Below are positions 15,108 through 39,869 of a DNA stretch of 64,000 nt, piece after piece. Made by a program: the position numbers and the translations under genes. How positions within the stretch are numbered: position 1 is the first letter of the stretch; each line of letters opens with the position of its first letter. The stretch lies in contig JAQVIJ010000004.1 in NCBI GenBank assembly GCA_028695735.1, forward strand, positions 128,671-192,670, given 5' to 3'. Source of the DNA: Deltaproteobacteria bacterium. GTDB lineage: Bacteria; Desulfobacterota; Dissulfuribacteria; Dissulfuribacterales; DYLC01. The notes below the pieces were generated by a model. It had not been told where the DNA came from, did not search any database, and saw nothing but the letters and a program-made list of their open reading frames with translations.

Positions 15108-16694
15108 ATGGTTTATTTTTCAAGGAACCTTAAAGAATTTTTCAAAGGAATAAAAGAGGCGCCTGCAGAGAGATTCCCCATCTGGGCGGCTAATCTACTG
15201 TTTTTCTTTTTGCTTTTCTGCATGGTGCTGTCGTTTTTTTTCTATCAGATGGCAGCGGCCCGAAATGCCTTTTTGAAGGATGTGAATGCCCATGGCAGGC
15301 TGGTTGCAGAAGTGGTGAGCCTCAATGCGAGGGGCGCTGTCCTGGCTGGGGATGTAGTGGAAGAGGTATTCGGCCGTTTTTTGAGCAATACCGCCAGATT
15401 TATTGATTATCTTGACACGGTTCAGCCGTTTACAGCAGAGGAGTTGACAGCCTTTGCCAGGGAATCAGGTTTGGCCGGCATCAGAATAGTGCGTTCCAGC
15501 GGTGCGTCAGTGGAAGGGCCCGGCCATTGGACCGAGGGTCTGAATGCGTCGTGCGGCCGGACTCCGAGCCTCAATTATATGGCTGACAGGCACCTCACGG
15601 TTTTGACTATCACAGGTATGCACGCCGGCTGTATTGTTTTGGCGGTGGGCACCAGTCAGATAGATGCCATGCTTTCAGAGGTCGGGCTTAAAAAGACGTT
15701 GTCCAAGCTGTATCAAATCGAAGGGATTCGGTATGTCAGGCTGGAAGGCGCGCTGCTGGACGATTCGGTGTTTCGCGGCAGCCACGAAGATTTAATGAAC
15801 GAGCCATCGGATTTGGGGCACGTGGTGGAGGAGAGGGTGCCTCTTGAGACCGGCGGTTTGCTGGTAGTGGGGATAGACGCCACGCTTTTCCATGAGATGA
15901 CTCATAGATTGGTCAGGGATTTCACCATATTCAGTCTGCTACTTGCGCTCGTGGGTTCATTGCTGTCCTGGCTGTTATACGGCATGCAGAAGAGATATCT
16001 TCAGGCGGCCAGGACCTTTGAGCAGAGTCTCTCCGCCCAGAGGGAGGATGCTGCGCTGGGAAGGGCCACGGCGGCTATCGCCCATGAGATCAGGAACCCC
16101 TTGAACGCCATTGCCATGGCCATGCAGCGTCTGATCATGGAGGTGCAGGGGCTTTCCGGCGAGCACAGGAAATTGCTCGATGTATCCCTTTCCGCTGTGG
16201 GAAGGGCCAACAGGATTATCTCCTCGTTGCTGCACTATGCCCGGCCCATTCAAATGCAGAAAACGGAAATGGACCTCAAGGGTTTTATAGAGGACAGCCT
16301 GCAACCCTATCGCGGGCGGTTGGAGGAGCTTGGGATAACATTGCAACTGGAAATGGAAGATGGTCTGAGAGTCGGGGCTGATGTGAATCTTTTGGGGCAG
16401 GTTATGGACAATCTCATTAAAAATGCCATGGATGCCCAGCCGGAAGGCGGTTTTTTGCGCATAAGTGTTCATCGTGCAGACGGTGAGGCCAGGCTGTGCA
16501 TTCAGAATGCCGGCTGCGCCTTGTCCGAAGATGAGGTACAGCGCGTCTTTGAACCCTATTATACCACTCGAATTCAGGGCACAGGGCTTGGTCTTGCCAT
16601 CGTGAAGAGGATTATCTTTGTGCATGGAGGCAGGGTCGAGGCATTTGCGAAGGAAGGCGTTTTTGAGTTGGTCTGTTACCTGCCGCTTTTATGA
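15108..16694 (+). CDS. sensor histidine kinase (two TM segments flanking a periplasmic domain; NtrB/ZraS-like)
   Basis: H-box AAIAHEIRNPLNAI; N box LIKNAMDA; G boxes (..QGTGLGLAIVKRI..). Confidence 0.9.
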   Translation: MVYFSRNLKEFFKGIKEAPAERFPIWAANLLFFFLLFCMVLSFFFYQMAAARNAFLKDVNAHGRLVAEVVSLNARGAVLAGDVVEEVFGRFLSNTARFIDYLDTVQPFTAEELTAFARESGLAGIRIVRSSGASVEGPGHWTEGLNASCGRTPSLNYMADRHLTVLTITGMHAGCIVLAVGTSQIDAMLSEVGLKKTLSKLYQIEGIRYVRLEGALLDDSVFRGSHEDLMNEPSDLGHVVEERVPLETGGLLVVGIDATLFHEMTHRLVRDFTIFSLLLALVGSLLSWLLYGMQKRYLQAARTFEQSLSAQREDAALGRATAAIAHEIRNPLNAIAMAMQRLIMEVQGLSGEHRKLLDVSLSAVGRANRIISSLLHYARPIQMQKTEMDLKGFIEDSLQPYRGRLEELGITLQLEMEDGLRVGADVNLLGQVMDNLIKNAMDAQPEGGFLRISVHRADGEARLCIQNAGCALSEDEVQRVFEPYYTTRIQGTGLGLAIVKRIIFVHGGRVEAFAKEGVFELVCYLPLL

Positions 16695-16754
16695 ATTGCA
16701 TATCCGGAAGTTCAGCCGGAGGAGTTCCCTTTATAAAAAAGATGGAGTGAGACA

Positions 16755-18080
16755 ATGAATATACTCGTGGTGGATGACGAACAGGAACAGCTTGATATGC
16801 TTGCAGGTTTTTTGAAACATCAGGGTTATGAGGTTGTTACGGCCTGTGACGGTCAGGCTGCCCTGAGGATCGTGAAGGATTCGCCGGTGTCAGTGGTCTT
16901 ACTGGATCACAGAATGCCCGGAATGACCGGCGACGAGGTGTTGGAGCGCATAATGGCCATAAATCCCCTGATAAAGGCCATCATGATTACGGCCTATGGC
17001 GAGGTGGGTACGGCTGTACGCGTGATGCAGTTAGGGGCAGTGGACTTTCTGGAAAAGCCTGTGGACCTGAGCCTGCTTTTACAGAAGATACAGGAGATAG
17101 AGGGTGCGCTGGAGGTTGAACAGGATGTGCAGGAGGTGGTGGAGCAGGTAAGTGAATCAGGGCTTCCCATTCGTATGTCGGCCAAGAGCAGGGCCATGCA
17201 GGAGGTCATTTCCATGGCAAGGCGCGTGGCCCAAAGCCCATGGCCTGTGCTCATTCGAGGCGAGACAGGTACGGGTAAGGAGCTTATCGCAAGGCTCATT
17301 CACTCCTTGAGCCCACGGAGCCAGGGCCCGTTTATAGAGGTCAACTGTGCTGCGATTCCTGAAAATCTCTTTGAAAGTGAGTTGTTCGGCCATGAAAAAG
17401 GGGCGTTCACCGGCGCAATAAACCAGAGAAAGGGCCGTTTTGAATTGGCCAATGGCGGCTCCCTTTTTCTGGATGAGGTGGGTGAGTTGCCCCTGTTTTT
17501 ACAGCCCAAACTGCTTCGGGCCATTCAGGAAGGCCGTATTGCCCGAGTGGGAAGCGAGAAGGACATGGCCGTTGATATTCGCATCCTCTCCGCCACCAAC
17601 CGGAATCTCAAGGGAATGGCGGCTGATGGAAGGTTCAGGGAAGACCTGTATTATCGTTTGAATGTCCTGGAGATCGAGATTCCTCCGCTCAGGGAACGCA
17701 GGGAGGATATTCCGGCGCTGGTGGAATTTTTTCTGTCCAGATATGCCTCAAGGCCTGTTCAGATATCACCTGAGGCCATGGACCTGCTGGTCAAGTATTC
17801 CTATCCAGGTAATGTCCGGGAGCTGGAGCATGTGCTGCAGAGGGTGGTGACCATGAGTAGAGGAGGTGTAATCAGGCCCGTGGACCTGCCTGCTGAGTTG
17901 CGCAGCACTTCAGCGGAAATGAACGGTCCCCTTGTGCAGAGACTGGAGTTCATGGAACTGCAAATGATACGGGATGCCCTGGAACGGCATGACTGGGTGC
18001 AGACCAGGGCGGCTGAGGCCCTTGGCATCAGTGAGCGCGTGCTACGTTACAAGATGGCCAAGTATGGCATTAAAAAATGA
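16755..18080 (+). CDS. sigma-54-dependent response regulator (REC-AAA+-HTH, NtrC family)
   Basis: Intact receiver (VVDDE...LLDHRMPGM), Walker A GETGTGKE, GAFTGA loop (EKGAFTGA), and a C-terminal Fis-type HTH (..RAAEALGISERVLRYKMAKYGI). Confidence 0.92.
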   Translation: MNILVVDDEQEQLDMLAGFLKHQGYEVVTACDGQAALRIVKDSPVSVVLLDHRMPGMTGDEVLERIMAINPLIKAIMITAYGEVGTAVRVMQLGAVDFLEKPVDLSLLLQKIQEIEGALEVEQDVQEVVEQVSESGLPIRMSAKSRAMQEVISMARRVAQSPWPVLIRGETGTGKELIARLIHSLSPRSQGPFIEVNCAAIPENLFESELFGHEKGAFTGAINQRKGRFELANGGSLFLDEVGELPLFLQPKLLRAIQEGRIARVGSEKDMAVDIRILSATNRNLKGMAADGRFREDLYYRLNVLEIEIPPLRERREDIPALVEFFLSRYASRPVQISPEAMDLLVKYSYPGNVRELEHVLQRVVTMSRGGVIRPVDLPAELRSTSAEMNGPLVQRLEFMELQMIRDALERHDWVQTRAAEALGISERVLRYKMAKYGIKK

Positions 18081-18260
18081 GGTGTTTCAAAAAGAAACAA
18101 AACATCAGGAATTACAGGTGGTTAATGTTTTTATTTAAAGATTTTTTAATGGTATTTGTAAAAAAACATAGAAAAAAGGCATTGACGAGTCTGTCGCCAA
18201 GTGATAGATGTAACAATGAATCGCCATTCATAAAGTTCAAGAGAGGAGGGTTTAAATGGA

Positions 18261-19673
18261 ATGAATAAAGATTGTAGTTATTGGAGGTTGCGGCCTCTCG
18301 GTTGCGGGAGTCTGTTGTTTGCGACCCTTCTGACGGGTTGCTTGGTATCGTCCGCCTCGGCCATGGAGACATCCGCTGGTGAGGTGGACATCAGTTCCAC
18401 CACGCGTTATCAACTCCAATGGGCAGGCTCGCCCGACAAAAAACTCCTCCCCAACGAGACCAGCGACCAGGATTTTTCAGAGCTTCTGGGGGTTCAGTAC
18501 ACATCCTCCAAGATAGACGGCCTGTCCTTTTCGTTTTTGGGCAAGTATTCCAAGGACCTGGACGGCACGGCCGAGGGCTCTGTGTTTCAGGACTATCTGG
18601 ATGTGAGCAGCAATGAGCGTCAGCGTCTGGATGCCTATTATGCCTATGCCGAAAAGAGGGACATCGTGCCTGGGTTGGATATGCGTCTGGGCCGTCAGTA
18701 TGTCTATGGTGCGGAGGTGGTGCACTTCGACGGTCTGTGGATGAAGGCCGACAGGCTGCTGGACAATCGCTTTAGTGTGGAGGCCTTCGGCGGCCAGATT
18801 GTTCAGATGTATTCGGATCTCAACAAGAATGAAGTGGGTGGCATAAATGTGGGTTATTACCCCATGAAGGAGCTGGCCCTGTATCTGAACAGCGTTTTTT
18901 ATGTGGAAAACTCCTTTGAGGCACAGGCCTATTGGCGTCCCATGGAGTGGCTGAAGGTCAACGGCCGATGGGAGCTGTTAAATACTCGAAATCGGGAGGC
19001 CTCGTTTGATGTCATCGGTGATATACACGCCACAGATACCACGGTGGGCGTAAATGTCTTCAGGAGGTTCAAGATTGCCCAGCACACCCCTGAGGATTTC
19101 CTGTTCGACTATACCTCTTCTCTGGATACTATAAATAATATCAAGCGGTTGTATCTGTCACGGGAAGAGGCCTATACGCAGTACACCCTTTCTGTATCCC
19201 AGCCCATCCCCCATCAAAAGGGGCTGTCTGTATTCGTAAGAGGGACGGTGCGTGACCTGGATCACGACGATGCAGAGACCCTGTACACAACGGACTTTTA
19301 CAGCCTTACAGGCGGCATCAATGTGGATGAGTGGCTTGGTCTCAAGGGTTTCCATCTGAGTACCGGTGTCACCTGGTGGTGGGAGGACCGCAATCGCATG
19401 TATGAGGCTGAGTCCAGGTCCGTGTTTCTGGATGCACGTCAGGAATTGCCATATAAACTGGAGCTGTCAGGCGGCTTCTATTACAAGGATGAGGATGTGA
19501 ACTCCCTGATAGAAGGCGAAGGAGCAGCCCACTACTACGGTGCATTGAAATACAAGTTCGCCAAAGACAAGTGGACAGAGGTCAAATACGAATATGAACG
19601 GGATGATTATTATAAAGAGTTTGGAGTAGGGGATATCAATGTATTGACCCTGACACTCCATGCCAACTTTTAA
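18261..19673 (+). CDS. putative outer-membrane beta-barrel (porin-like) protein
   Basis: Signal peptide ending ASA. Aromatic/Gly-rich sequence with alternating hydrophobicity, and a C-terminal ..LTLTLHANF ending in Phe as in OM barrels. GAGGAGG RBS. It heads the cytochrome cluster. No family is recognisable by eye. Confidence 0.6.
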   Translation: MNKDCSYWRLRPLGCGSLLFATLLTGCLVSSASAMETSAGEVDISSTTRYQLQWAGSPDKKLLPNETSDQDFSELLGVQYTSSKIDGLSFSFLGKYSKDLDGTAEGSVFQDYLDVSSNERQRLDAYYAYAEKRDIVPGLDMRLGRQYVYGAEVVHFDGLWMKADRLLDNRFSVEAFGGQIVQMYSDLNKNEVGGINVGYYPMKELALYLNSVFYVENSFEAQAYWRPMEWLKVNGRWELLNTRNREASFDVIGDIHATDTTVGVNVFRRFKIAQHTPEDFLFDYTSSLDTINNIKRLYLSREEAYTQYTLSVSQPIPHQKGLSVFVRGTVRDLDHDDAETLYTTDFYSLTGGINVDEWLGLKGFHLSTGVTWWWEDRNRMYEAESRSVFLDARQELPYKLELSGGFYYKDEDVNSLIEGEGAAHYYGALKYKFAKDKWTEVKYEYERDDYYKEFGVGDINVLTLTLHANF

Positions 19674-19689: not shown

Positions 19690-20610
19690 ATGAAGATACA
19701 AATCTCGTATAAAATTATATTCGTATCCTTGGTGCTTGTGCTGGTTCTTGGAGTCTATGGATGTAAAAAGGAAGACACCAGCCTGAAATTTGATCACAAG
19801 CTGCATGTGATGGACAATTCCCTTTCGTGTGACAGCTGTCATGCCAAGGGCAAGGACGGCAAGCTCACAAACCCAGGCATGGACAAGTGCCAGGAGTGCC
19901 ATGAGATAGATATGGATCATCCTTCGGAGAAGTGTCTGCAGTGTCATTCTGTGAAGTCCGCTGCCAACGACTATAAAATCGAAGGGACTATCCCTGAGAA
20001 ACCCAAGGGTTACAGGGACTTGATCTTTAAGCATGAGGCCCATGAAGGGGTTGCCGAGTGCGGCACGTGTCATAAGGGTATCTGTGGGCAGAATTCCCTT
20101 TCTCAGATAGAGTGGCCTGATATGTTTGTGTGTAAGAAGTGCCACAACGGCAAGGATGTGCCCATAGATTGTGAGATGTGCCATACAGAGGTGAGAAAGG
20201 AGATCAAGCCGGAGAGCCACAATGGCGATTGGGCCATGCACCATGGTCTGGAGAGCCGCTTTGACAGGTCATGCCAGTTCTGTCATGACAACCAGGAGCG
20301 TTTCTGCCAGGATTGCCACAGGACGCAGAAGCCCAAGGATCACATTCTGAGCTGGAAGACCAGCGGCCATGGTGAGGAGGCCATGCACGACAGAAGGCTC
20401 TGCGCCACCTGCCATACCGCTGCCTACTGTTCTGACTGCCATCGCTCTCAAAAGCCCATCTCCCATGCCCGTGGCAACTGGATGGCCTATACCCGTGAAA
20501 ACGGCCATGCCGAAGAGGCGAAACGGAATTTCAGAAGCTGTAATGTGTGTCATACCACCTCTGAGTGTATGCAGTGTCATCAGACCATTGCACTCAGAAG
20601 GATGAAATAG
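19690..20610 (+). CDS. dodecaheme c-type cytochrome, lipoprotein
   Basis: Lipobox LGVYGC. Twelve CXXCH motifs in 306 aa: CDSCH, CQECH, CLQCH, CGTCH, CKKCH, CEMCH, CQFCH, CQDCH, CATCH, CSDCH, CNVCH, CMQCH. Confidence 0.9.
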   Translation: MKIQISYKIIFVSLVLVLVLGVYGCKKEDTSLKFDHKLHVMDNSLSCDSCHAKGKDGKLTNPGMDKCQECHEIDMDHPSEKCLQCHSVKSAANDYKIEGTIPEKPKGYRDLIFKHEAHEGVAECGTCHKGICGQNSLSQIEWPDMFVCKKCHNGKDVPIDCEMCHTEVRKEIKPESHNGDWAMHHGLESRFDRSCQFCHDNQERFCQDCHRTQKPKDHILSWKTSGHGEEAMHDRRLCATCHTAAYCSDCHRSQKPISHARGNWMAYTRENGHAEEAKRNFRSCNVCHTTSECMQCHQTIALRRMK

Positions 20611-20635
20611 AGATTAAATATCAGGAGGTGTGAAA

Positions 20636-23600
20636 GTGAAAGTTAAGGGTAAGAAGTATGTCTTGTTGGGGCTGTTGGCGGCTCTATTGCTGCCTGCCAT
20701 GGCCTCCGCCCATCCAGCGGTACAGCTGCTGGATGAACAGGGAAGGCCTATTAAGGACCAGTTGGATCCATCTGATACGGTCCAGGCCGCAAATGGTACG
20801 GTCTATATGAGAGGTCCTGCCTATAGTCCAAAGCAGACCTGTGGTAAATGCCATGATTATCAGGCAGTTACACGCGGCTATCACTTCCGTGAGGGCGCAG
20901 GCAGGAACGGTGAAGGGGTGGATGACCATTGGTCTGCCAAAAATAAAGACGGCAGTCTGTATCGCTATCTTGCCAACGCCTATGGCCACCTGCTGAGTCC
21001 TGGTCAGTTCGGCGCGTGGTGACCGCCTTCTTACCGCCAGTTGGCGGCTAAGAAGGAACGTGGTGGACTGAAGGACCCCTTCTCCTCAGAAGGTAAGAGG
21101 TATTTCTTTGATCAGGGCACGGCAGACCACATGGCTGTCTGTTACTCTTGTCACCCAGGCGGCGGGCCTGCAGAGGGTATTGTGCAGGCGGATGGTACGG
21201 TAAAACCCTATACAGACCCATCCCTCAAGCCAACACATACCTATGATCGTGATTTTTATGCCTATAGCGGCAATCTCACAACACAGACTCTGAACAGCCT
21301 GGCATCTATCGCTGAGACCATGCAGGCTATGGGAGACCCCAAGCCCCATGATTGGCACAAGTCAGGTGTGATGGAGGCGGACTGTATGCTCTGTCATACG
21401 GATCCACAGAGCCCTTATGCCCTGAAGGCCGCGGATGGTCTGAAGGCTCAGCCCTTTAAGCCACGCATGATGATCTTTGCTGATCGTCAGGGTGGCAAGG
21501 TGCAAAGTATCTCTTTGGGAATGCCGCTCAAGACCGGTTTGGCCAATGAATCGGCCCTTTCTTACACCAATGACCCACAGCGCATGTCCAGGCCAACCAA
21601 GCTCTTCGCATTGGCTCAACTGCCCAAGGAGGTTGTGGGCGAGATGATGCAGATGTGGGTGGATGCCCTGAAGAACATGGAAAAGCAGGGGGTAAGGCTG
21701 CCCTATGCCCTTTATGGCCAGAATGTGACCAAGATCTGGACACAAAACGGCATCAATCCGGCTTATTGCGCCAATCCGGCTGGAGCAGCGGACGAGATGA
21801 ACCGTCTGATGAACGCAGCCCCTGCCATCAACCAGTTGTTTTCTGGCATGATGAGCTACATGAAGTCAAAGGGCTTGATGCCTGCAAACGCCACCATGAA
21901 CGACATGATGGGCATGTTCTTCAATGACTTCATCTATGCCTATAAAATAAAGGACCAGATGGGCAATCTCTTGCCCATTCCTGTGCCCCTGCGCGCCTAT
22001 GAGCCAGGCAAGTTCTATACGGATTGGGATACCAATCATGCATCCCTTAGGGATTATATGCGGGCACCCCTCATAGAAGGCGAGGGTATCGCCTATTCCG
22101 GCAAGGTCGGTATGGGCTGGGGTGCTGCCATGTATGCCATTCAAAAGGCCATGCAGGGCGATATGCGTTATATGAATGCCGCTGGTATGCCTGATGTGGC
22201 GGCAGTGATGGCGGACATGCAGAAGGGTGTGGTGAAGCCTCAGGATATTCAGGTCACCCTGCATGATTTCCTGCCCAGCTTCTTCTATATGATGCCCACA
22301 GCAGAGCTCATGGGCCTGGATTTCAATCAGGACGGTGCGCCTATCTCTTATGTTCGCATAGACAGGGCTGGAAATGAGTGGCAGGCCAAGGCCTATTGGA
22401 ATGTGGCAGACCTGAAGGACGGTTATCTGAATATGTCCATGTTCGGCGGCCCTGACGACATAAACTCCTATAAATGGGTCAATGTCTGCGGTCAGTGTCA
22501 TGTAATGACCAAGGACCATGGAAACAGCGAGTGGAACTACGCCCGTACATACAACCTCGGTATGCCGGCGGACTGGGTCAAAAACGGTGTGTATGTGAAC
22601 TTCACCGATGATGAAGAGGCATCCGGTTATGATGTGCATCTTTCAGGTAAACATCTGGGTTGTGGTTCCTGTCATTTGAGGACAGCCGGAAACATTGAAG
22701 ATAAGCACAATTTCCTGAAGGGAACAGATACCGCCCACATGGTGGCCAATGAGTTGGACAACAACCCCAAGCCCAAGACCTGTGAGTATTGTCACCTGGC
22801 TGGTGGCAGCACGAGGGCACCCAATCCCACACGGGCACACGAGGAGAAGTTCGGCGAAAACACAGGCCGGCACATGGCCGAGATCACCTGTGAGGTCTGT
22901 CATATCCCCTACAGACGCACATGGAGATTCCGTACCTTCGATAATACCATGGGATATTACGGCAACTTCGACAACCGTATGGGCTATAATGTCCTGCCGG
23001 GTGGAGATGCCAGAATGGCAGCCTATCCTGCCGAATACGCCTTGCCACCTGTCTATGCCACATCCCCAGGTTACGGCATATCCCATTTCCACATGGCTGC
23101 CAATCACATAGATGCAGACGGTAAGGGTGTGGTGCCCATGGATTTTGTGGCCCAGATGGTGGATTACTTCAATATGAGCAGCTCTGCCGACCCAGGCAAG
23201 GTCGTAAATGGTATGCCCACAAATATGCAGTTCGACTTCTGGCACTATTTCTACCAGATGTTCCTGAACAACTATAAGGCCATGGGTGTGCCCATCAATT
23301 ACGACCCAGAGCATGACAACGAGTCGGTCGTTCCGCTTTATTACGCCAACTCCAAGAACGGCTATCCACAGATTGTAAGTGGCAACCCCATCACCATCTT
23401 TACATGGGTGGATGCCAATCCGGAGCCTGGTCATGACATGAGCGATATTGCTTATGGCGGAGCAAAGGTGCTGTATATACGTGAACTCAACGCGGCTATT
23501 CAGTCCTATATTCCGCCCATTGAGTTGGGCAAGGTGAGCCCCATGGACCTCGCCAAGATTCCGCCCAATGATCCGACATGGGCCAAAAACCCCTATGTGG

Positions 23601-24595
23601 GCAAGATCATTTTGAAAGACAGTGGTTATGTCATCTTCGATCACACCGGCGATATGTATCCTGAACTCTGGTGGGATGAGGATGTACGTGCCATGCAGCA
23701 GGCCCTGATAAAGGTGTTGAAGGCCGAGGGTGAGACAAATCCAATGCCCATGCTCTTCATGGCCGCTCACTACTTCTCGGATTCCCATGGTGTTCAGCCT
23801 GCGGAGAAGGCCCTGGGGGCCAAGTCCTGCTATGACTGCCATGGTGATTACACCAAGGACCCAGGTTCTCATCGCATCACTGACAAGGTGGTTGTGTATA
23901 TGCCTTGGGCCCCGCCATGGTTCAGGGATGAAAATCGCGCCATGAAGTATGATCCTGCAAAGGGCATGGTGCCAGCCAATCCAAACGGCTTCTTCATAGT
24001 GGATGGCGAGGTGGATTACATCAAGCCCATTCAGGCCAACGGCCTCGGCGTGCTGGGTGCACAGGCCAAGGATGTCCTTGCCCTAAGCAAACACCATGCA
24101 GAGGATCTCTTCTACATTACCAGTGAAGGTACGGTGCGTGGCAGTGATCTGGGCTATCTCTCTGACTTCACTTCAGAGGAATTGAGCACTGAGTATGCGA
24201 AACAGGTGGTGAACGGGCCGTGGTCAGACAAGCTCTACTTCTATATTCCCAAGGACTTGAAGGATGAGCTGTCCGAGTGCGGATTCCAGCCACAGAGCGA
24301 GCCTGTCCTGTTGAGCGGCGCTGGTATGGCTGAAGGCTATGTGTTGAGGCTTGGTTTGAATACAAGCGAGCGCAAGGCCATGGTGATATCCCTGCCGTTT
24401 ACGGGTGCTGCCCCGGAGATCTGGACAAAACAGCCGGGTGATGCAGGCTTTAGCAAGGATACCTCCGCTGTCATTCTGGACTACAACAGTGCCTATATCG
24501 TGGCGAAGGTCAACCATCCAGGCGAGTTCGTGTGCATTGACAGCACTCGAATCACAGGGGCCAACCTGGATCTTTGGAAGGCCTTTATGAAATAA
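20636..24595 (+). CDS. giant octaheme c-type cytochrome; single reading frame containing one in-frame TGA (21020-21022), candidate selenocysteine codon
   Basis: Track ORFs 20630-21022 and 21041-24595 are in the same frame, separated only by TGA plus 6 sense codons. Only the first has a signal peptide (..LLAALLLPAMASA/HPA). The second starts at a TTG with no RBS and no signal peptide, yet carries 7 CXXCH motifs (CYSCH, CMLCH, CGQCH, CGSCH, CEYCH, CEVCH, CYDCH), with CGKCH upstream. Start preferred at GTG 20636, 7 nt after AGGAGG. That this DNA is coding is near-certain; the fusion via recoding is the uncertain part. Confidence 0.65.
21026..21056 (+). promoter_or_regulatory. SECIS-like mRNA hairpin 3 nt downstream of the in-frame UGA
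   Basis: CCTTCTTACCGCC-AGTT-GGCGG(C)TAAGAAGG forms a 13-bp stem with one bulged C and a 4-nt loop containing GU. The upper 5-bp stem starts 11 nt after the UGA. There is no T-tract, so it does not look like a terminator. Confidence 0.5.
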
Positions 24596-24656
24596 CCTGT
24601 TAGAGACAGACAGGGGCGAAATTCACCCCTGTCTGTTCCTGTTTAATTCGTGTTTA

Positions 24657-24697
24657 AACAAGAAAAGCGCCTAAATTAGGCGCTTTTCTTGTTTTTT
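24657..24697 (+). terminator. rho-independent terminator of the cytochrome operon (usable from both strands)
   Basis: Perfect 15-bp stem aacaagaaaagcgcc / ggcgcttttcttgtt with a 7-nt loop, followed by TTTT. A second hairpin lies at 24606-24636 (acagacagggg / cccctgtctgt). It sits between convergent genes. Confidence 0.75.
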
Positions 24698-25442: not shown

Positions 25443-25520
25443 TGGCGTCCCCGACGGGATTTGAACCCGTGTCGCAAGCGTGAAAGGCTTGTGTCCTGGA
25501 CCTGGCTAGACGACGGGGAC
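25443..25520 (-). tRNA. tRNA-Glu (anticodon UUC), CCA encoded
   Basis: Reverse complement GTCCCCGTCGTCTAGCCAGGTCCAGGACACAAGCCTTTCACGCTTGCGACACGGGTTCAAATCCCGTCGGGGACGCCA folds as a cloverleaf. The anticodon loop is CTTTCAC. It aligns closely with the canonical bacterial tRNA-Glu layout. Confidence 0.9.
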
Positions 25521-25535
25521 GCTTGTATAAAATTG

Positions 25536-25610
25536 TGGTGGGCCGTGCTGGGATCGAACCAGCGACTCTCTGCTTAAAAGGCAGATACTCTACCTCTGAG
25601 TTAACGGCCC
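25536..25610 (-). tRNA. tRNA-Lys (anticodon UUU), CCA encoded
   Basis: Reverse complement GGGCCGTTAACTCAGAGGTAGAGTATCTGCCTTTTAAGCAGAGAGTCGCTGGTTCGATCCCAGCACGGCCCACCA. The anticodon stem is TCTGC/GCAGA with loop CTTTTAA. Confidence 0.92.
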
Positions 25611-29807: not shown

Positions 29808-29869
29808 TTAAGAAACCCCCCAAGAGATCCTTGAGGATTAATTTTACAAATGCGGCAGGTGAAATCAAT

Positions 29870-32800
29870 ATGGTGCTTGAATCCGATGCCTTGCGTCAGA
29901 ATCTGCGTGAAACAGCCGTCAATTATGTCTTGATCGATGCCCGCTATGACAATCTGCTGGAGGCATTGCGAGCCTATCAGGGGGTTTTCAAAACAGCGGA
30001 ACACCTTGTCTATGAACTCCATCACCCTTTTGTGAACTGGGGGGTCTTTATAGATGAATTGCGCTCGTTTTCCCTGAAGAATCTGCCTGTCATCAGCAGA
30101 ACGCCTTGCGCCGACCAGGCCCTTGCCGTAATGCTCGAACTTTTCCATGACACCATTGTCAGGGCCCCCAAACAGCACCAGAAGCTGCTTGTACTCGATG
30201 GACTGCTGGCCTTTTACGAAAAACTCGGTTCCTCACTGGAACCCACTCTGCTGCATAAAATGATGTCAGCCCTGCAACAGAGTGTTTCCCGCTTGAGTGA
30301 GTTGGAAGAACCGCTTTTGATGGGAGTCGTCCGCAGTCTGTATCCCTTGCAGCGCACAGCCGGCGTCTTGCTGTCAAGGGTTGCGCCTGGCTTTGAAGAC
30401 CATGGTTTGTGGCAGGCATTGTTGTCTCTGCTTGTGCGTGTTCAGGAATTGTCCCTGGGTTATTGGATGCAATTGGATGACCCATTTGAATGGTTCGAAC
30501 GTACTATAAAGCAGTACGGGGTCTTTTTGCCCGATTCTCTGCTTGAAGAGGTCAGAAAACTGCTGCAACCCATTTCTAGGATGCGTATGCAGCAGGAATT
30601 GTCAAAGGTGGATGAAATACGGAAACGCTGTCTCACCCGGCTTTCGCCCCAGGCCGGCCATAAGCCTTCCGACGGGGCGCCGTCCGCAATCTCATGCCTT
30701 CAGGAGGCGCTTGCCGTTGTTTCGCATCTGGAGATAGTCAAGGCATACAGGACGGTGGCCCAGTCTTTTGGCGAGCATTACTGTACCCTTCAGGGATCAG
30801 CGGCTTCCGGATATGGAGAAAAAAACCCTGAGATAGACCTGCATATACTTTTCCTTTTTCACATGGTGGAGATCGACGCCCTTTCCACGATTCATGAGGA
30901 TGTGCTCCGGAATATCAACAAAAGACTGCTGTGCCTGGTGCGTACGGCTCAAATAGAACAGCTAAACGATATATTGCCGCGCGCCTTCCGTTTGCTCAAG
31001 CAGCAGATCGGAAACTTTCCTCAGACAGCCCTGCAGTGCATCGAGGCCCTGGGCGGTGAGATATCCAGGCTGAACAACGAAGGGCTGCTGGAGCTTTTTC
31101 TGGAGCAGGTGGTGGAGTTCGGCTTTCAAACCCCTGATATTCATGGAGTGGATGCCGAGTGGCATGTGCTTTCCAACCCGGCGCATCTTCAGAATATTCG
31201 TGTGTGGCTCAAGCTCATAAGGCAGAATCCGAAGGTGTTCAGCACGCTGCTCTCAGCCCTGATAGTGAATATATCCCTGGCGGGCACCTGCATAAAGGAC
31301 ACCGACCTCTTTCAGAAGGATGTCACACAGCTCTTGAATGCGGATATAGAGCCGGTCTATGCCTTGGTCAAACAGTTCACCAAGCTGCTGCCGGTTTATT
31401 TCAACGAGATAGGCGCAGAAGGTCTTTTGAGGGATGTCTCCACGGAACTGGATGAACTGACCCTGCGCCAGGACAGACTCATACATTTTCTGCGCAAACA
31501 GGCCCATGTGGAGAGTCACAATCTCATAGTGGATTTTATCGGTTCCATCCTGCATTTCTGGCATACAGGGGATAAATCCGTCCTGAAACCATGGGTGCCG
31601 GATGTGGTGCTGGAGGGTGTGACTGCGTCCGGTGAATTTTTCGATGAGGTGCATACGATCATCGCAAGACTGGCGGAAAGCTGTCCGCTGACAAGACCCC
31701 GAAACAGCGCGGATGTGCTGGAGAGCCTCTGCGACCTCTCTGAGACCCGTGTATCAGGGCTTCTGGAGGGTATGACAGATGTATCGGAGAGGGAGAAAAA
31801 GAGGGTTTGGCTGCTTTTCAAGATGTATCGCCTGGAGGTTTTGAAATACAGATTGGGTGTGCAGGAACTGGCAGGACATCTGAAGGAGGCCAGGGACTGG
31901 GGGTTCAACGGGCTGGACCGTGTCATAGAGATGCTTGAGCAGAACGGGCAAACGGCGGCCAATGACTCAGGCGCATTCAGCACTGGTCCTGCGGAACTGG
32001 AGGGCCGTTTGCAGATACTGCTTGAGACCCTGGAATGGCTTCAGACCATCATATTGAGCCGGCAGCAATTCGAGATTCGCGAGGATATCTACTACAAAAG
32101 GCACATTGCCGTGGATATTCCGTCCATGTACGGAAAATATCATGAAAAGAAGTTTGACGCCCTGAGCCTGAGTTTTCGTCTGGAAAATCTGGCCCAGACA
32201 TATTTCGAGTCCATGGTGGAGGACCTGGAGCTCACATTTGTCACGCGGGCACTTTTTGTAAAGATTGTGAGATATCTGAAGTTGTGTTACAGGGCGGTTC
32301 GTCTGAACGGCGTGCGGTCCCGTGGTTTCGAGTCCCATTTGACCTTGCTGGAACAGTCCCTTGAGATAAGGCGATTCAGCTTTTCGCAATATCTGGACAT
32401 CGTCAGAGGGCTGTCGGAAGGGGTCAAGGAGATGATTCATGTGCATTACATCAGCCCTCATCAGGACAATCTCGCCCGTGTCCTGAAACAATTGGGGGAG
32501 GAAGGTCTTTCTGTAAAATATCGTAACTCCTTTGGCCCGGAGACCGGTGAACTGCTTCCGCGAGTGTCCGAGCGTTTTTACAGGGACCTCATAGCCACCA
32601 CCTTCGGTATGCAGGTGCTGGATCGTTTTGTATCCCGGCTCTATCAGGTCATGGGCGAGCAAAAAGAGCGATTGAGTCAGAGGGAGCTGGACCTGCTGTT
32701 GAGTTACGATATGGAGCGGGTCTTGTGTCCCATACGCAACCCAAATCCTCAGACCAAAAACCTGATTTATCTCGGCAACAAAGGCTTTAATCTCGTGAAA

Positions 32801-38108: not shown

Positions 38109-38193
38109 GCCGAAGTGGTGGAACTGGTAGACACACCATCTTGAGGTGGTGGCGGGGTAACCTGTGGGGGTTCGAGTCCCCCCTTCGGCACCA
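38109..38193 (+). tRNA. tRNA-Leu (anticodon GAG), class II with long variable arm, CCA encoded
   Basis: GCCGAAGTGGTGGAACTGGTAGACACACCATCTTGAGGTGGTGGCGGGGTAACCTGTGGGGGTTCGAGTCCCCCCTTCGGCACCA. The anticodon stem is CCATC/GGTGG (one G-U pair) with loop TTGAGGT. Confidence 0.92.
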
Positions 38194-38242: not shown

Positions 38243-38360
38243 CTCATGCGGAATACCTATTCATACATCCAAGTCCCATAAGTGTCTCTGTTTCGAGATC
38301 CGATTGTGGAATCTGGGATAACAGAATCTCTTGGCACTTCTTTTGCAAAAACTTCTATCG

Positions 38361-38484: not shown

Positions 38485-39837
38485 ATGCGACGTTTTTTTG
38501 CCCTGTTGGCACTTTGCTGTATGGCCTTTGAATGCCATGCCCCTGTTTGGGCTGGTAATAAGATTTATCTCACTACCGAGAAGCTGGTCTATGGATTTCC
38601 CCTAAAAGAGGATGTCCAGGTCATGGGTTATCTGCGGGAGGTACCTGCTGGAACACCTGTGGATATTGCCGTAAGCCTCCTGTTGCCCGACAATACCGTT
38701 GTATATTTGACGCCTGCATTGGAATTTCACTCCACATATACCTATGTCTTGAGCAAATTTCCCTTTGTAGCCGTGCCTACTACCAAACTTTTCCCCATAA
38801 ACGGCACTCTGGTGTTCAAGGAAGGGGCGGTCAATCCAAAGACCGGTGTGGCATCAGAGAGTAAAATAGGTGATATGCCTGCTGGCAGGTATGTGTTAAA
38901 GGCCACTTTGGCCGGTCCTGGTGTCAGTGACGCCAGCGAGGAACCCTTTTGGATAGTCGGCAAGGATCTCCTGCCATCCATTGCCGAGACACCAAGGCCC
39001 ATCATAGACGGGGTTACTCCGCCCTATGCCGATGTGGGGCAAGAGGTCAAGATAACAGGTCGAAATCTCAGGGGAAAGCCTGGGTTAGTGGATTTGAGTC
39101 TGGTGAATCAGTTTCAGATCAATGTGAGACTGGCGGGGAAGGAGGTGCCTGTGGTGGCTATGGACGAACAGGGAAACTGGTTGACGATCCGCATACCGGC
39201 TGACGCGGTGTCAGGCGAACTGGTGGTCTCCCTCACACTTCCGTACTGGGATGAATCTGCGGGCCAGGGACATCTCTCCATACCCCGTGTGGCGGTCTGG
39301 AGTTCCAATGCCTTTCCCTTTTTCTTGCCGCCCAAGGCCATGAGGATTGAGCCAGCATCGGCAATGCCAGGTGAGAGTGTAACCATAACTGGCTTGAATT
39401 TCAATGAAAATTCCTTGGCAAATCAGGTCTATTTCAACGAGGTCCCCGGCACTGTAACCGCCGCCACGGCCACATCCCTGACCGTGACAGTGCCTGCTGT
39501 GTCAAGCCCTTATGCCTGGGTGCAGGTGGTGAGTAACGGCATTCGCGGAAACGGACTGTCCATGGTCTTGAAATATCCCGTGATCTCCAACTACTACCCC
39601 CGTAAACTGCTGCCTGGGCAGATCTTGACCATCTCAGGGGCCAATTTTTCAGCTACCCCTGAAGAAAACTCGGTCTTTTTAGGCCAGCAATCCCTGAAGG
39701 TAATTTCTGCCACTGCCACGGAACTTCAGGCGGAAACAAATGCCGGTCTGCTGCCAGGCCGCTGGCCCTTGGTGGTACAAGTCAAAAACGCCGTGAGCGT
39801 GGGGAGTGCCGAGGTGGTTGTGTTGCCGGTCTGGTAG
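38485..39837 (+). CDS. secreted IPT/TIG-repeat protein
   Basis: Signal peptide ending in VWA. About 170-aa N-terminal domain followed by at least 3 IPT/TIG-like units (..ITGRNLRG.., ..ITGLNFNENSLANQVYFNEVPGTVTAATATSLTVTVP.., ..ISGANFS..). Confidence 0.8.
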   Translation: MRRFFALLALCCMAFECHAPVWAGNKIYLTTEKLVYGFPLKEDVQVMGYLREVPAGTPVDIAVSLLLPDNTVVYLTPALEFHSTYTYVLSKFPFVAVPTTKLFPINGTLVFKEGAVNPKTGVASESKIGDMPAGRYVLKATLAGPGVSDASEEPFWIVGKDLLPSIAETPRPIIDGVTPPYADVGQEVKITGRNLRGKPGLVDLSLVNQFQINVRLAGKEVPVVAMDEQGNWLTIRIPADAVSGELVVSLTLPYWDESAGQGHLSIPRVAVWSSNAFPFFLPPKAMRIEPASAMPGESVTITGLNFNENSLANQVYFNEVPGTVTAATATSLTVTVPAVSSPYAWVQVVSNGIRGNGLSMVLKYPVISNYYPRKLLPGQILTISGANFSATPEENSVFLGQQSLKVISATATELQAETNAGLLPGRWPLVVQVKNAVSVGSAEVVVLPVW

Positions 39838-39869
39838 CCCTGAAAAATGATGTGTGTTCAGGAGGAGTT

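What the first reader, a model, noticed from the sequence alone, without database searches (positions are those of the whole stretch)
20630..21060. In-frame UGA plus SECIS-like hairpin joins a signal-peptide ORF to a signal-less 1184-codon heme ORF: candidate selenocysteine-containing giant cytochrome
Seen directly:
- ORF 20630-21022 (signal peptide plus one CGKCH) and ORF 21041-24595 (seven CXXCH) are in the same frame.
- They are separated only by TGA (21020-21022) and six sense codons (..GQFGAW-TGA-PPSYRQLAAKKERGG..).
- The downstream ORF has no ATG or GTG start, no RBS and no signal peptide. The track had to invoke TTG 21041, which sits in the loop of a hairpin.
- Three nt after the TGA begins a 13-bp hairpin, CCTTCTTACCGCC/AGTT/GGCGG(C)TAAGAAGG, with a bulged C, a GU-containing tetraloop and no T-tract.
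- Its apical 5-bp stem starts 11 nt after the UGA.

Established knowledge:
- c-type cytochromes need Sec-dependent export for heme attachment, so a 7-heme protein without a signal peptide is not viable on its own.
- Bacterial Sec insertion needs a SelB-binding hairpin immediately 3' of UGA. In the E. coli fdhF paradigm the apical stem-loop sits about 11 nt downstream.

Inference: this is one roughly 1320-aa octaheme protein with Sec at about residue 131. I am not aware of a characterised Sec-containing multiheme cytochrome.
Basis: partly seen in the sequence, partly recalled or inferred. Interest (0 to 1): 0.86.

Follow-up and report, generated by a model that had tools for sequence, protein, structure and literature searches.

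The report
Selenocysteine-containing giant octaheme cytochrome gene
Two ORFs that gene callers split at a TGA are almost certainly one exported ~1,320-residue eight-heme cytochrome with selenocysteine at that codon, and it belongs to a large, so far unnamed family of such selenoproteins in sulfur-cycling anaerobes.

Summary

- **The codon.** Of 61 homologous loci, 57 have TGA at exactly this codon, 2 have Cys and 2 have Leu. None has TAA or TAG. The six codons between the TGA and the supposed TTG start are invariant as amino acids but vary synonymously, so they are translated.
- **The hairpin.** Its apical part (CCGCC-AGUU-GGCGG, 21034-21047) is invariant in TGA-type loci, silent sites included, and is degraded in Cys and Leu forms. 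It meets all four criteria of the published bacterial SECIS model.
- **The wider family.** The same TGA-plus-hairpin arrangement recurs in ~600-aa octaheme cytochromes from metagenomes, with a compensatory C-G to A-U change in the stem.
- **The operon.** The gene follows an outer-membrane beta-barrel and a 12-heme lipoprotein.
- **Family membership.** The protein matches no named family, including the three known haem-linked selenoprotein families, and has no solved structural relative.
- **Correction.** A Sec multiheme cytochrome has now been characterised (MccSep/ExtKL, 2026).
- **Not shown.** Selenium incorporation, Sec-decoding genes in this genome (none in the window) and the protein's function.

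The parts
18261..19673 (+). First gene of the conserved three-gene cluster: a 470-aa outer-membrane beta-barrel.
   Evidence: The AlphaFold2 model has pLDDT 81 and about 22 strands. The Foldseek PDB top hits are porins and usher pores (E = 5e-11, TM 0.4-0.5). No Pfam or NCBIfam hit. Found directly upstream in 41 loci, counting the window itself, of the 61 spanning the junction. It is 100% identical to P0241, a 'MAG: Deltaproteobacteria bacterium' protein.
19690..20610 (+). Second gene: a 306-aa cytochrome with 12 CXXCH motifs and a lipoprotein signal (..LGVYGC|KKE).
   Evidence: Twelve CXXCH motifs. The same 12 motifs and a conserved ..[SA]GC/GAC-KKE lipobox are seen in all 44 homologues recovered, the window included; one (L019) is cut before its N-terminus. 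Found at the same offset upstream of the Sec gene in 43 loci, counting the window. Pfam Cytochrome_C7 match, E = 9e-12.
20623..20628 (+). Shine-Dalgarno sequence AGGAGG of the selenoprotein gene.
   Evidence: Read directly. The 7-nt spacing points to GTG 20636 as the start rather than GTG 20630.
20630..24595 (+). The complete selenoprotein gene: one ORF of 1321 codons (1319 from GTG 20636) ending in TAA, with eight CXXCH motifs and one in-frame UGA.
   Evidence: Forty-six complete Sec-type orthologues of 1319-1459 aa all carry eight CXXCH motifs.
20630..20710 (+). Signal peptide (type I, ..PAMASA|HPAV..).
   Evidence: Read directly. All complete orthologues have a comparable N-terminus followed by a conserved mature end, HP[AP]V.LLD.
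20840..20854 (+). Haem-binding motif 1 (CGKCH, residues 71-75), upstream of the UGA.
   Evidence: Invariant in 46 orthologues.
21020..21022 (+). In-frame UGA, proposed selenocysteine codon (residue 131, or 129 from GTG 20636).
   Evidence: TGA in 57 of 61 loci, TGC or TGT in 2 and CTG in 2, never TAA or TAG. TGA is otherwise the commonest ordinary stop in the window, so there is no genome-wide reassignment.
21026..21056 (+). SECIS-like hairpin inside the coding sequence: an 8-bp lower stem, a bulged C at 21048, a 5-bp apical stem at 21034-21038/21043-21047 and the loop AGUU at 21039-21042.
   Evidence: Fold. The apical stem-loop is invariant in all 57 TGA loci apart from four G.U wobbles. Synonymous-codon entropy is 0-0.37 bits at codons +4 to +8, against 0.7-2.5 bits at most other degenerate codons. 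TGA and CC-AGUU-GG occur together (93/6 against 7/41). One stem pair covaries, C-G in 16 and A-U in 11 distinct sequences. The hairpin meets the published bSECIS criteria.
21140..21154 (+). Haem-binding motif 2 (CYSCH, followed by the conserved PGGGPAEG).
   Evidence: Invariant.
21383..21397 (+). Haem-binding motif 3 (CMLCH).
22487..22903 (+). Cluster of haem-binding motifs 4-7 (residues 620, 678, 718, 754). This is the only region with any similarity to named families.
   Evidence: Pfam MtrC/MtrF domain II/IV, 30.4 bits against a cut-off of 30. NCBIfam TIGR04315 (OTR octaheme), 27.9 bits against a cut-off of 375. A family profile against the PDB gives NrfA at E = 1e-4 and cytochrome c554.
23828..23842 (+). 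Haem-binding motif 8 (CYDCH).
24606..24697 (.). Two GC-rich hairpins after the TAA: ACAGACAGGGG..CCCCTGTCTGT, then AAGAAAAGCGCC..GGCGCTTTTCTT followed by TTTTTT. They probably end the operon; the second could serve both convergent genes.
   Evidence: Read directly from the sequence printed. The consensus scan did not list them, so this is a reading, not a tool call.

Best explanation
Positions 20630 (more likely 20636) to 24595 form one gene.

**The protein.** It encodes a Sec-pathway-exported c-type cytochrome of about 1,290 mature residues with eight CXXCH haem sites. The UGA at 21020-21022 is decoded as selenocysteine.

**The recoding mechanism (inferred from the standard bacterial pathway).**
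1. The mRNA hairpin at 21026-21056 acts as a bacterial SECIS element.
2. Its apical part (5-bp stem plus AGUU loop, 16 nt past the UGA) binds SelB-GTP-Sec-tRNA(Sec).
3. That complex delivers Sec when the UGA enters the ribosomal A site.
4. The element lies inside the reading frame, so the same bases also encode the invariant peptide Y-R-Q-L-A.
5. Ribosomes that fail to recode release a 130-residue monohaem fragment.

**Family and context (shown).** The protein belongs to a large unnamed superfamily of octaheme cytochromes. Its core form is about 600 aa; this lineage has large insertions. The Sec site (S-P-G-x-[FY]-G-x-W-U) and its SECIS are ancestral and widespread. The gene is the last of a conserved operon: outer-membrane beta-barrel, 12-haem lipoprotein, Sec-cytochrome.

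**Function (inferred, not shown).**
- The haem chain delivers electrons across the cell envelope to a catalytic site in which the selenolate attacks a chalcogen substrate. The most likely substrates are the S-S bonds of polysulfide or elemental sulfur.
- This would be a functional analogue of MccSep. It is not a homologue and it lacks MccSep's haem-ligating cysteine.
- The carriers are mostly Desulfobacterota from sulfidic or hydrothermal settings. They include Dissulfuribacterales, MAGs labelled Dissulfurimicrobium, Desulfocapsa, Desulfobulbus and Thermodesulfatator, and one isolate (Thermodesulfobacteriota bacterium B35).

The confidence of 0.85 applies to the claim of a single gene recoded at UGA as Sec. 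The functional part deserves about 0.3.
For: **One gene, translated through the UGA**
- tblastn of the junction region matches 61 loci in a single frame.
- Codons +1 to +3 (P-P-S) vary only synonymously and codons +4 to +6 (Y-R-Q) hardly vary at all; all six are invariant as amino acids.
- P0073 and its loci L048/L055 (Leu) and L052/L053 (Cys) are continuous ORFs.
- Only the N-terminal part has a signal peptide.

**Sec rather than a plain stop**
- TGA in 57 loci, never TAA or TAG, with Cys in paralogues.
- In the wider family, 38 cluster representatives end exactly at the motif and 18 carry Cys there.
- All six loci fetched for four distant representatives (five distinct sequences) show TGA with in-frame continuation.
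- Among the 86 loci of that wider set (80 from the metagenome scan plus those 6), 42 have TGA.

**SECIS**
- Fold energy -24.5 kcal/mol.
- All four criteria of the published bSECIS model are met: loop 3-9 nt, upper stem 4-16 bp, G then G/U in the first loop positions, 16-37 nt from the UGA, MFE <= -7.5.
- Silent-site variation collapses exactly over the apical stem-loop.
- The motif travels with TGA and decays without it (Fisher p = 1e-22, not corrected for phylogeny).
- Covariation score 0.171 against 0.062 +/- 0.014 in shuffles, 0 of 500 reaching it, and above every slid control.

**Other support**
- UGA is otherwise a normal stop in this window.
- Thermodesulfobacteriota are among the most selenoprotein-rich bacteria (PMC13188914).
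- Operon.
Against: - There is no direct evidence of selenium in the protein.
- No selA, selB, selD or tRNA-Sec lies in the 64-kb window or in the flanks held for 60 related loci. Their presence in the genome is assumed from the phylum.
- Within the close family the apical stem never varies. It gives conservation but no covariation, and the lower stem is unpaired in many members.
- In the ~600-aa clade the non-Sec relatives mostly carry Met, Thr, Ser or Leu at the site rather than Cys. That is unusual for a catalytic Sec and leaves its role open.
- The proposed sulfur function rests only on taxonomy, habitat and analogy with MccSep.
- The cytochrome has a type I signal peptide, not a lipoprotein signal, so whether it ends up in the periplasm or on the cell surface is not settled.
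Confidence: 0.85

Rival explanations
1. The UGA is a true stop. Two proteins are made: a 130-aa exported monohaem cytochrome and a separate 1184-aa protein started at TTG 21041. This is how gene callers annotate it.
For: All public gene calls split the locus this way. A truncated 130-aa product is probably also made whenever recoding fails.
Against: - The downstream part has no RBS and no signal peptide, yet carries seven covalent-haem motifs that need export.
- The six codons before the TTG are invariant as protein, and the first three vary at silent sites.
- The stop is always TGA.
- Paralogues have a sense codon and one ORF.
- The TTG sits in a hairpin loop.
Confidence: 0.03
2. The UGA is read through, but not as selenocysteine. 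The hairpin would stimulate near-cognate decoding (Trp, Cys or Arg), or another recoding event, giving a full-length protein with a standard residue.
For: Sequence alone cannot tell which residue is inserted. No Sec machinery was seen in the window. Many relatives tolerate Met, Thr, Ser or Leu at this site.
Against: - The hairpin meets all the specific bSECIS criteria, including the loop G followed by U or G at the right distance.
- Cys occupies the site in paralogues and in 18 distant clusters.
- The carriers belong to the most selenoprotein-rich phylum.
- As far as I know, no hairpin-stimulated non-Sec UGA read-through system conserved over such distances is known in bacteria.
Confidence: 0.07
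3. The TGA is a sequencing or assembly error, or the gene is a pseudogene.
For: None specific. One relative (L065) does carry a frameshift elsewhere in the gene.
Against: The same TGA is present in 57 independent assemblies and in 42 more distant loci, with strong purifying selection on both sides.
Confidence: 0.01
4. Functional rival: Sec is not a substrate-attacking nucleophile. It would instead be the distal axial ligand of one haem (His/Sec ligation), tuning its potential or gating a catalytic site.
For: - Met, a classical haem ligand, is the commonest replacement of Sec in the ~600-aa clade (15 of 44 non-TGA loci).
- No conserved cysteine exists outside the CXXCH motifs to play the haem-ligating role that Cys239 plays in MccSep (PMC13510729).
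- Sec lies between haem motifs 1 and 2 in a strictly conserved loop.
Against: Thr, Ser, Leu, Gly, Ile and Val also occur at the site and cannot ligate haem. No coordinates were available to measure Sec-to-haem distances. Plenty of conserved His residues exist for bis-His ligation of all eight haems.
Confidence: 0.2

Closest known systems
MccSep / ExtKL (GSU2937-2936) of Geobacter sulfurreducens: pentahaem selenoprotein polysulfide reductase (PMC13510729; NCBIfam NF040886)
   Same: - An exported multihaem c-type cytochrome whose gene is split by annotation at an in-frame UGA followed by a SECIS-like hairpin.
- Sec/Cys alternation among homologues.
- Found mainly in Desulfobacterota and other sulfur-cycling anaerobes.
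- The gene lies next to an outer-membrane porin gene and a 12-haem cytochrome gene (ExtI and ExtM; PMC5877670).
   Different: - No detectable sequence relationship: NF040886 is not hit at E <= 0.01.
- 1,321 aa and 8 haems, against about 430 aa and 5 haems.
- Sec lies near the N-terminus between haem motifs 1 and 2 (..GAW-U-PPSY..), not in a C-terminal Ig-like domain (..PDG-U-PTP..).
- No conserved extra cysteine that could be the haem ligand essential in MccSep.
Tetrathionate reductase (OTR) family octaheme c-type cytochromes (TIGR04315), listed with GenBank-annotated Sec forms in PMC13188914
   Same: Eight CXXCH motifs. There is weak local similarity over haems 5-7 (27.9 bits here, 32-39 bits for the ~600-aa relatives). 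The family is linked to sulfur chemistry.
   Different: Scores are an order of magnitude below the family cut-off of 375 bits. Size, N-terminal module and overall predicted fold differ. Foldseek finds no PDB relative at E <= 1e-3.
NrfA / cytochrome c554 type catalytic multihaem core
   Same: A profile of the family weakly matches NrfA (E = 1e-4) and c554 (E = 5e-4) over one pair of haem motifs.
   Different: Only about 55-100 residues align. There is no CXXCK motif. The relationship is at most that of a shared haem-packing module.
Porin-cytochrome (Pcc/Mtr-type) trans-outer-membrane conduits
   Same: A conserved operon of an outer-membrane beta-barrel plus multihaem cytochromes, one of them a lipoprotein. 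Marginal Pfam hit to MtrC/MtrF domain II/IV.
   Different: The barrel matches no MtrB/PioB or other model. The large cytochrome is not a lipoprotein and is not a decahaem. No Sec is known in Mtr or Pcc components, except for the separately listed GSU2204 family (NF041027), which this protein does not match.
Bacterial SECIS elements (E. coli fdhF paradigm; consensus model of Zhang and Gladyshev as summarised in PMC13188914)
   Same: - A hairpin directly 3' of the UGA inside the ORF.
- A small apical loop with G followed by U.
- An upper stem that starts 11 nt after the UGA, as in fdhF (the fdhF detail is from my own knowledge).
- All four criteria of the consensus model are met.
   Different: The sequence is unrelated to fdhF, and the bulge is a C on the 3' side rather than a U on the 5' side. 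No Rfam family matches. That carries little weight, since I am not aware that Rfam models bacterial SECIS elements (own knowledge).

Membership tests
Bacterial selenoprotein gene (UGA recoded through SECIS/SelB) | In-frame UGA conserved at one codon across orthologues, never replaced by another stop codon. | tested here: met
   TGA in 57 of 61 loci, no TAA or TAG. TGA in 42 of 86 more distant loci.
Bacterial selenoprotein gene (UGA recoded through SECIS/SelB) | Homologues with Cys at the position aligned to the UGA. | tested here: met
   L052 (TGC) and L053 (TGT). Eighteen of 148 distant cluster representatives have W-C-SPAP... In the ~600-aa clade, however, non-Sec forms are mostly Met, Thr, Ser or Leu, with only one Cys.
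Bacterial selenoprotein gene (UGA recoded through SECIS/SelB) | Protein-level conservation continuing in frame on both sides of the UGA. | tested here: met
   ..SPGQ[FY]GAW-U-PPSYRQ[LV]AAK.. is 78-100% conserved apart from the F/Y position, and codons +1 to +3 after the UGA vary only at silent sites.
Bacterial selenoprotein gene (UGA recoded through SECIS/SelB) | SECIS hairpin fitting the consensus model: loop 3-9 nt, upper stem 4-16 bp, G in the first two loop positions followed by G or U, 16-37 nt from the UGA, MFE <= -7.5 kcal/mol. | tested here: met
   Loop AGUU, 5-bp upper stem, 16 nt spacing, -24.5 kcal/mol. Criteria as printed in PMC13188914.
Bacterial selenoprotein gene (UGA recoded through SECIS/SelB) | RNA-level selection on the hairpin (silent-site conservation, covariation, loss in non-Sec forms). 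| tested here: met
   Silent-site entropy about 0 at codons +4 to +8. One pair shows C-G in 16 and A-U in 11 distinct sequences, with a covariation score above all 500 shuffles and all slid controls. The motif is absent in 41 of 48 non-TGA loci. Within the close family alone, covariation is weak.
Bacterial selenoprotein gene (UGA recoded through SECIS/SelB) | selA, selB, selC (tRNA-Sec) and selD present in the same genome. | not testable with these tools
   None is present in the 64-kb window and no tRNA-Sec lies in the flanks held for 60 related loci. The rest of the genome is not available.
Bacterial selenoprotein gene (UGA recoded through SECIS/SelB) | Selenium in the polypeptide. | not testable with these tools
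   Needs 75Se labelling or mass spectrometry.
MccSep / ExtKL family (NF040886) | Match to the family model. | tested here: not met
   NF040886 is not among the NCBIfam hits at E <= 0.01.
MccSep / ExtKL family (NF040886) | Five conserved CXXCH motifs with Sec/Cys in a C-terminal Ig-like domain. | tested here: not met
   Eight CXXCH motifs, with Sec at residue 131 of 1321.
MccSep / ExtKL family (NF040886) | Strictly conserved Cys serving as distal ligand of the active-site haem. | tested here: not met
   The only conserved Cys in 46 orthologues are those of the eight CXXCH motifs plus the Sec position.
OTR-family octaheme cytochrome (TIGR04315) | Score at or above the curated cut-off of 375 bits. 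| tested here: not met
   27.9 bits over residues 665-761 only. The ~600-aa relatives score 32-39 bits.
GSU2204 family CXXCH selenoprotein (NF041027) | Match to the family model. | tested here: not met
   No hit for the cytochrome or for the neighbouring barrel.
MtrC/OmcA outer-surface decahaem cytochromes | Ten haems, a lipoprotein signal and the MtrC domain architecture. | tested here: not met
   Eight haems and a type I signal peptide. There is a single marginal PF22113 hit (30.4 bits against a cut-off of 30). TIGR03507 is not hit.
Porin-cytochrome conduit (works-like, not a homology family) | A conserved operon with an outer-membrane beta-barrel and multihaem cytochromes. | tested here: met
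Porin-cytochrome conduit (works-like, not a homology family) | Physical complex spanning the outer membrane, with the large cytochrome exposed on the surface. | not testable with these tools
   Localisation and complex formation need experiments.

The most novel reading that the evidence does not exclude
This would be the founding, best-conserved example of a large unrecognised superfamily of octaheme selenocytochromes. In it, a lone selenocysteine with no partner cysteine works directly with a haem. It would act either as a natural His/Sec axial ligand or as the nucleophile of a cell-envelope enzyme that opens S-S bonds of elemental sulfur or polysulfide. In the Dissulfuribacterales-type lineage that enzyme could be the long-sought sulfur-activating step of S0 disproportionation or respiration, wired to the cell through a porin-cytochrome conduit.
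Probability: 0.2. Interest if true: 0.9.

Novelty: new variant of a known kind. Interest (0 to 1): 0.68.

Why it matters
**Annotation.** Every public gene call seen here splits these genes into a 'hypothetical protein' of about 130 aa and a 'cytochrome c3 family protein'. This affects more than 120 clusters for this lineage and more than 550 metagenomic stretches for the wider family. Haem counts, localisation predictions and selenoproteome censuses for many Desulfobacterota are therefore wrong.

**Biochemistry.** MccSep showed in 2026 that Sec working with a haem can reduce polysulfide. A second family, unrelated, larger and much more widespread, with a different active-site make-up (no Cys ligand), would show that Sec-haem chemistry arose more than once. 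It would also offer a contrast for working out the mechanism.

**Physiology.** How sulfur-disproportionating and sulfur-respiring Desulfobacterota attack insoluble S0 is still unresolved. A conserved operon of outer-membrane barrel, 12-haem lipoprotein and Sec-octahaem cytochrome is a concrete candidate that can be tested genetically.

**Method.** The SECIS here is so conserved (CC-AGUU-GG encoding x-Q-L-A) that it can serve as a search handle for the whole family.

Tried and rejected
- **Rfam.** Gathering thresholds over the window, and permissive E-values over 20950-21120, gave no SECIS or other relevant family. This is uninformative, because I am not aware that Rfam models bacterial SECIS elements (own knowledge).
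- **Sec machinery.** ARAGORN and Rfam found no tRNA-Sec in the window or in 60 related loci. NCBIfam scans of 30 further window ORFs gave housekeeping genes only and no selA, selB or selD.
- **Other Sec genes.** A scan of the window and of 70 loci for other TGA-bridged ORFs with a hairpin found nothing convincing. L065's apparent second TGA is a frameshift.
- **Structure of the fused protein.** Only the part after the UGA was modelled (pLDDT 88). Foldseek found no PDB relative for it at E <= 1e-3.
- **Alignments.** MAFFT placed the short N-terminal ORFs wrongly against the long proteins. Those alignments were discarded and junctions were analysed by tblastn instead.
- **PDB by sequence.** Nothing for the single sequences. 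A family profile gave only weak NrfA and c554 hits over one haem pair.
- **Promoter.** A sigma-54 consensus search upstream of the operon, prompted by the adjacent sigma-54 activator, found no match in 18080-18260.
- **MccSep supplement.** The data tables are not held, so I could not check whether its authors' genome list overlaps these MAGs.
- **Metagenome scan.** The first attempt failed because the alignment was too diverse. It worked with a narrower alignment.
- **Considered and rejected:** a terminator (no T-tract; not called), genome-wide UGA reassignment and an assembly error.

Full report
**1. What is in the sequence**

- ORF 20630-21022 and ORF 21041-24595 share a frame.
- The only interruption is TGA at 21020-21022, in the context ..SPGQFGAW*PPSYRQLAAKKERGG...
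- One CXXCH lies before the TGA (residue 71). Seven lie after it (171, 252, 620, 678, 718, 754, 1067).
- The N-terminus is a type I signal peptide (..LLPAMASA|HPAV..). The stretch after the TGA has neither an RBS nor a hydrophobic segment (read directly).
- The hairpin CCTTCTTACCGCC/AGTT/GGCGG(C)TAAGAAGG occupies 21026-21056. It folds at -24.5 kcal/mol, z = -2.7.
- Its 5-bp apical stem starts 11 nt after the UGA. The supposed TTG start overlaps its loop.
- The AGGAGG at 20623-20628 fits GTG 20636 (7-nt spacing) better than GTG 20630, so Sec is probably residue 129 of 1319.

**2. One gene, not two**

- A protein search with the fused sequence returned 87 close homologues. Most are 1150-1250 aa long and most of those start at the equivalent of 'LAAK'. 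Gene callers therefore cut almost all of them at the same place.
- A search with the junction region returned more than 120 clusters of 117-151-aa ORFs that all end at ..G-A-W.
- I fetched 70 genomic loci and aligned the junction by tblastn. Sixty-one loci, counting the window, span it in one frame.
- The codon at the site is TGA in 57, TGC in 1, TGT in 1 and CTG in 2. It is never TAA or TAG.
- The four sense-codon loci are continuous ORFs. They occur in the same MAGs as Sec-type copies, so they are paralogues.
- The six codons between the TGA and the 'start' are invariant as amino acids (P-P-S-Y-R-Q). The first three vary freely at silent positions: CCT/CCC/CCG/CCA, CCC/CCT/CCA/CCG, TCT/TCC/TCA/TCG. 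That is the signature of translated sequence under protein-level selection.
- All 46 complete Sec-type proteins have a signal peptide, eight CXXCH motifs and 1319-1459 residues.
- TGA is the commonest ordinary stop among long ORFs of the window (20 of 39). The organism has therefore not reassigned UGA.

**3. The hairpin is a selected RNA element tied to the UGA**

- In the 57 TGA loci the apical stem-loop CCGCC-AG[U/G]U-GGCGG is invariant apart from four G.U wobbles.
- Codon usage shows this is not a by-product of the conserved peptide. Synonymous-codon entropy is 0-0.37 bits at codons +4 to +8 (TAC CGC CAG TTG GCG). It is 0.7-2.5 bits at almost every other degenerate codon from -18 to +42.
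- The Cys-type loci read ..TTCAGGCAGCTTGCAGC.., with no hairpin. The Leu-type loci have a mismatch in the stem.
- The lower stem is looser. One pair shows C-G, U-A and U-G, and several positions are often unpaired. This agrees with the known unwinding of the lower SECIS helix during decoding (PMC13188914).
- The element meets all four criteria of the published bacterial SECIS consensus:

| Criterion | Required | Here |
|---|---|---|
| Apical loop | 3-9 nt | AGUU, 4 nt |
| Upper stem | 4-16 bp | 5 bp |
| UGA to loop | 16-37 nt | 16 nt |
| MFE | <= -7.5 kcal/mol | -24.5 kcal/mol |

**4. The site is ancestral in a much larger family**

- A profile of the N-terminal ORFs searched against 1.84 billion representatives gave 241 hits.
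- Among the best 148, 38 are short ORFs ending exactly after S-[PD]-G-x-[FY]-G-x-[WH], 18 have Cys next (..GGxW-C-SPAPLY..), and a few have Tyr, Leu, Ser or Gly.
- I fetched DNA for four of the short ones. Every locus has TGA, in-frame continuation through ..Q-L-A-x-K.. to a C-x-x-C-H-P-G-G-G motif, and a hairpin with the same CC-AGUU-GG top, placed 6 nt further from the UGA.
- A metagenome scan found more than 552 related stretches. In the resulting set of 86 loci (80 kept from the scan plus the 6 fetched before), 42 have TGA. The rest have ATG, ACG, TCN, CTG, GGA, ATA or GTC, and one has TGC.
- Nearly all complete fused ORFs there are 586-672 aa with eight CXXCH motifs. One form of 892 aa carries a C-terminal cytochrome b domain.
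- Over all 147 loci, TGA goes with the CC-[AGUU/AGGU/GGUU]-GG motif in 93 of 99 cases. Only 7 of 48 non-TGA loci keep it (Fisher p = 1e-22, uncorrected for relatedness). Non-TGA loci drift to CAA/CTG/CTT codons for the same Q-L.
- On 32 distinct hairpins, one apical pair switches between C-G (16) and A-U (11). The covariation score is 0.171 against 0.062 +/- 0.014 in shuffles (0 of 500) and exceeds every slid control.
- The window's protein is thus an expanded member of this family, about 700 residues longer through insertions.

**5. Context**

- The gene closes a conserved three-gene cluster, found in 41-43 of the 61 loci (the window included), and is followed by two strong hairpins.
- Gene 1 (18261-19673) has no family match. 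It models confidently as a beta-barrel of about 22 strands whose nearest solved relatives are porins and usher pores.
- Gene 2 (19690-20610) has 12 CXXCH motifs in 306 residues and a conserved lipobox.
- A sensor kinase and a sigma-54 response regulator lie upstream here and in the closest relatives.
- The rest of the window is housekeeping: ClpA/B, phosphoglucomutase, GAPDH, PGK/TPI, RNase P RNA and others.
- The carriers are mostly Desulfobacterota MAGs from vents, sulfidic caves and sediments. The closest are a Dissulfuribacterales MAG (94%) and a Dissulfurimicrobium MAG. One isolate, B35, also carries it.

**6. Comparison with what is known**

- Sec-containing multihaem cytochromes are no longer unknown. 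ExtKL/MccSep was predicted in 2007. In 2026 it was shown to be a pentahaem, Sec- and Cys-dependent polysulfide reductase essential for S0 respiration (PMC13510729; PMC5877670).
- A 2026 review lists three haem-related selenoprotein families: ExtKL NF040886, GSU2204 NF041027 and OTR-type TIGR04315.
- The present protein matches none of them. The only NCBIfam hit is TIGR04315 at 27.9 bits against a cut-off of 375. The ~600-aa relatives behave the same way.
- Pfam gives one marginal MtrC/MtrF-domain hit.
- No PDB sequence relative exists. A family profile only touches NrfA and c554 over one haem pair.
- A confident model of residues 132-1321 (pLDDT 88, pTM 0.86) has no Foldseek relative at E <= 1e-3.
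- Unlike MccSep, there is no conserved cysteine outside the CXXCH motifs.
- The recoding device is standard and the general kind, a multihaem selenocytochrome, is known. The family, its architecture and its active-site make-up are new.

**7. How it most likely works**

*Shown:* one ORF, a conserved UGA, a selected hairpin with SECIS properties, an export signal, eight haem sites and the operon partners.

*Inferred from the established bacterial pathway:*
- SelB-GTP-Sec-tRNA(Sec) binds the apical stem-loop and inserts Sec at the UGA.
- Failure to recode releases a 130-aa monohaem fragment.

*Inferred by analogy and context (about 0.3):*
- The haem chain, fed through the barrel and 12-haem lipoprotein module, supplies electrons to a site where the selenolate attacks S-S bonds of polysulfide or S0.
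- The Se-S adduct is then resolved by haem-derived electrons, because no resolving cysteine exists.

*Alternative role (about 0.2):* Sec is an axial haem ligand, suggested by the frequency of Met at this position in non-Sec relatives.

The type I signal peptide leaves periplasmic versus surface location open.

**8. Limits**

- No selenium data exist.
- No Sec-decoding genes were found in the window or in the held flanks, and the rest of the genome is unavailable.
- The association statistics are not corrected for phylogeny.

**9. Verdict**

It should be reframed: this is not the first selenocysteine multihaem cytochrome. It is a well-supported member of a second, unrelated, widespread and unannotated family of them.

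Noticed in passing
window 38332-38347 (+): A perfect sigma-54 promoter consensus, TGGCACTTCTTTTGCA, with 0 mismatches. It lies about 140 nt upstream of ORF 38485-39837, which together with ORF 39852-41561 weakly resembles LIC10067-family lipoproteins.
   Followed up: no
window 29831-34252 (+): A 1473-aa ORF with a TTG start. Only its C-terminal third (residues ~973-1467) matches pyruvate,phosphate dikinase or PEP synthase, and below the cut-offs. The N-terminal ~970 residues have no assignment, so this may be an unusual fusion or a mis-set start.
   Followed up: no
window 21410-22465 (residues 261-612 of the cytochrome): The haem-free segment between haem motifs 3 and 4 is 9.4% methionine (runs such as MMQMW and MNDMMGMFF), against 1.5-6% elsewhere in the protein. 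Its meaning is unknown; metal or sulfur binding and an oxidant sink are possibilities.
   Followed up: no
L042/L053/L048 (MAG JALWJV01) and L062/L052/L055 (MAG WGBG01): The same two MAGs each carry three paralogues of the cytochrome: one Sec-type, one Cys-type (L052, 2334 aa; L053 is cut at both contig ends) and one Leu-type (1910 aa, 19 CXXCH, with a long N-terminal extension).
   Followed up: partly
L071 4001-6676 and L072: A distant Sec-type relative (892 aa when fused) ends in a cytochrome b (Ni_hydr_CYTB/FdnI-like) membrane domain. Some members of the family are therefore membrane-anchored, possibly quinol-linked. Several non-Sec relatives have the same fusion.
   Followed up: partly
L077-L156 (metagenome loci): In the ~600-aa clade, the residue replacing Sec is most often Met (15), then Ser (11), Thr (7) and Leu (5), with Cys only once. 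This is atypical for selenoprotein families, where Cys is the usual substitute.
   Followed up: partly
window 20711-20716 and orthologues: The first residues after the predicted signal-peptide cleavage are conserved as His-Pro-[Ala/Pro]-Val (His28 in 87% of 46 orthologues). A conserved N-terminal His in a mature exported protein could be a metal or haem ligand.
   Followed up: no
L065 around 10775: This relative has a frameshift about 160 codons after the Sec codon, so it is either an assembly error or a pseudogene. It first looked like a second in-frame TGA.
   Followed up: yes
window 15108-18080 (+): A sensor histidine kinase and a sigma-54-dependent response regulator lie directly upstream of the operon. 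They are syntenic in the two closest relatives (L015, L001). No sigma-54 promoter consensus was found in the 18080-18260 spacer.
   Followed up: partly
window 42547-42919 (-), 25443-25610 (-), 38109-38193 (+), 44715-44788 (-): RNase P RNA (class A, 310 bits) and tRNA-Glu, -Lys, -Leu and -Met. The tRNA-Glu/tRNA-Lys pair just downstream of the operon is also present in L001 and L015.
   Followed up: no
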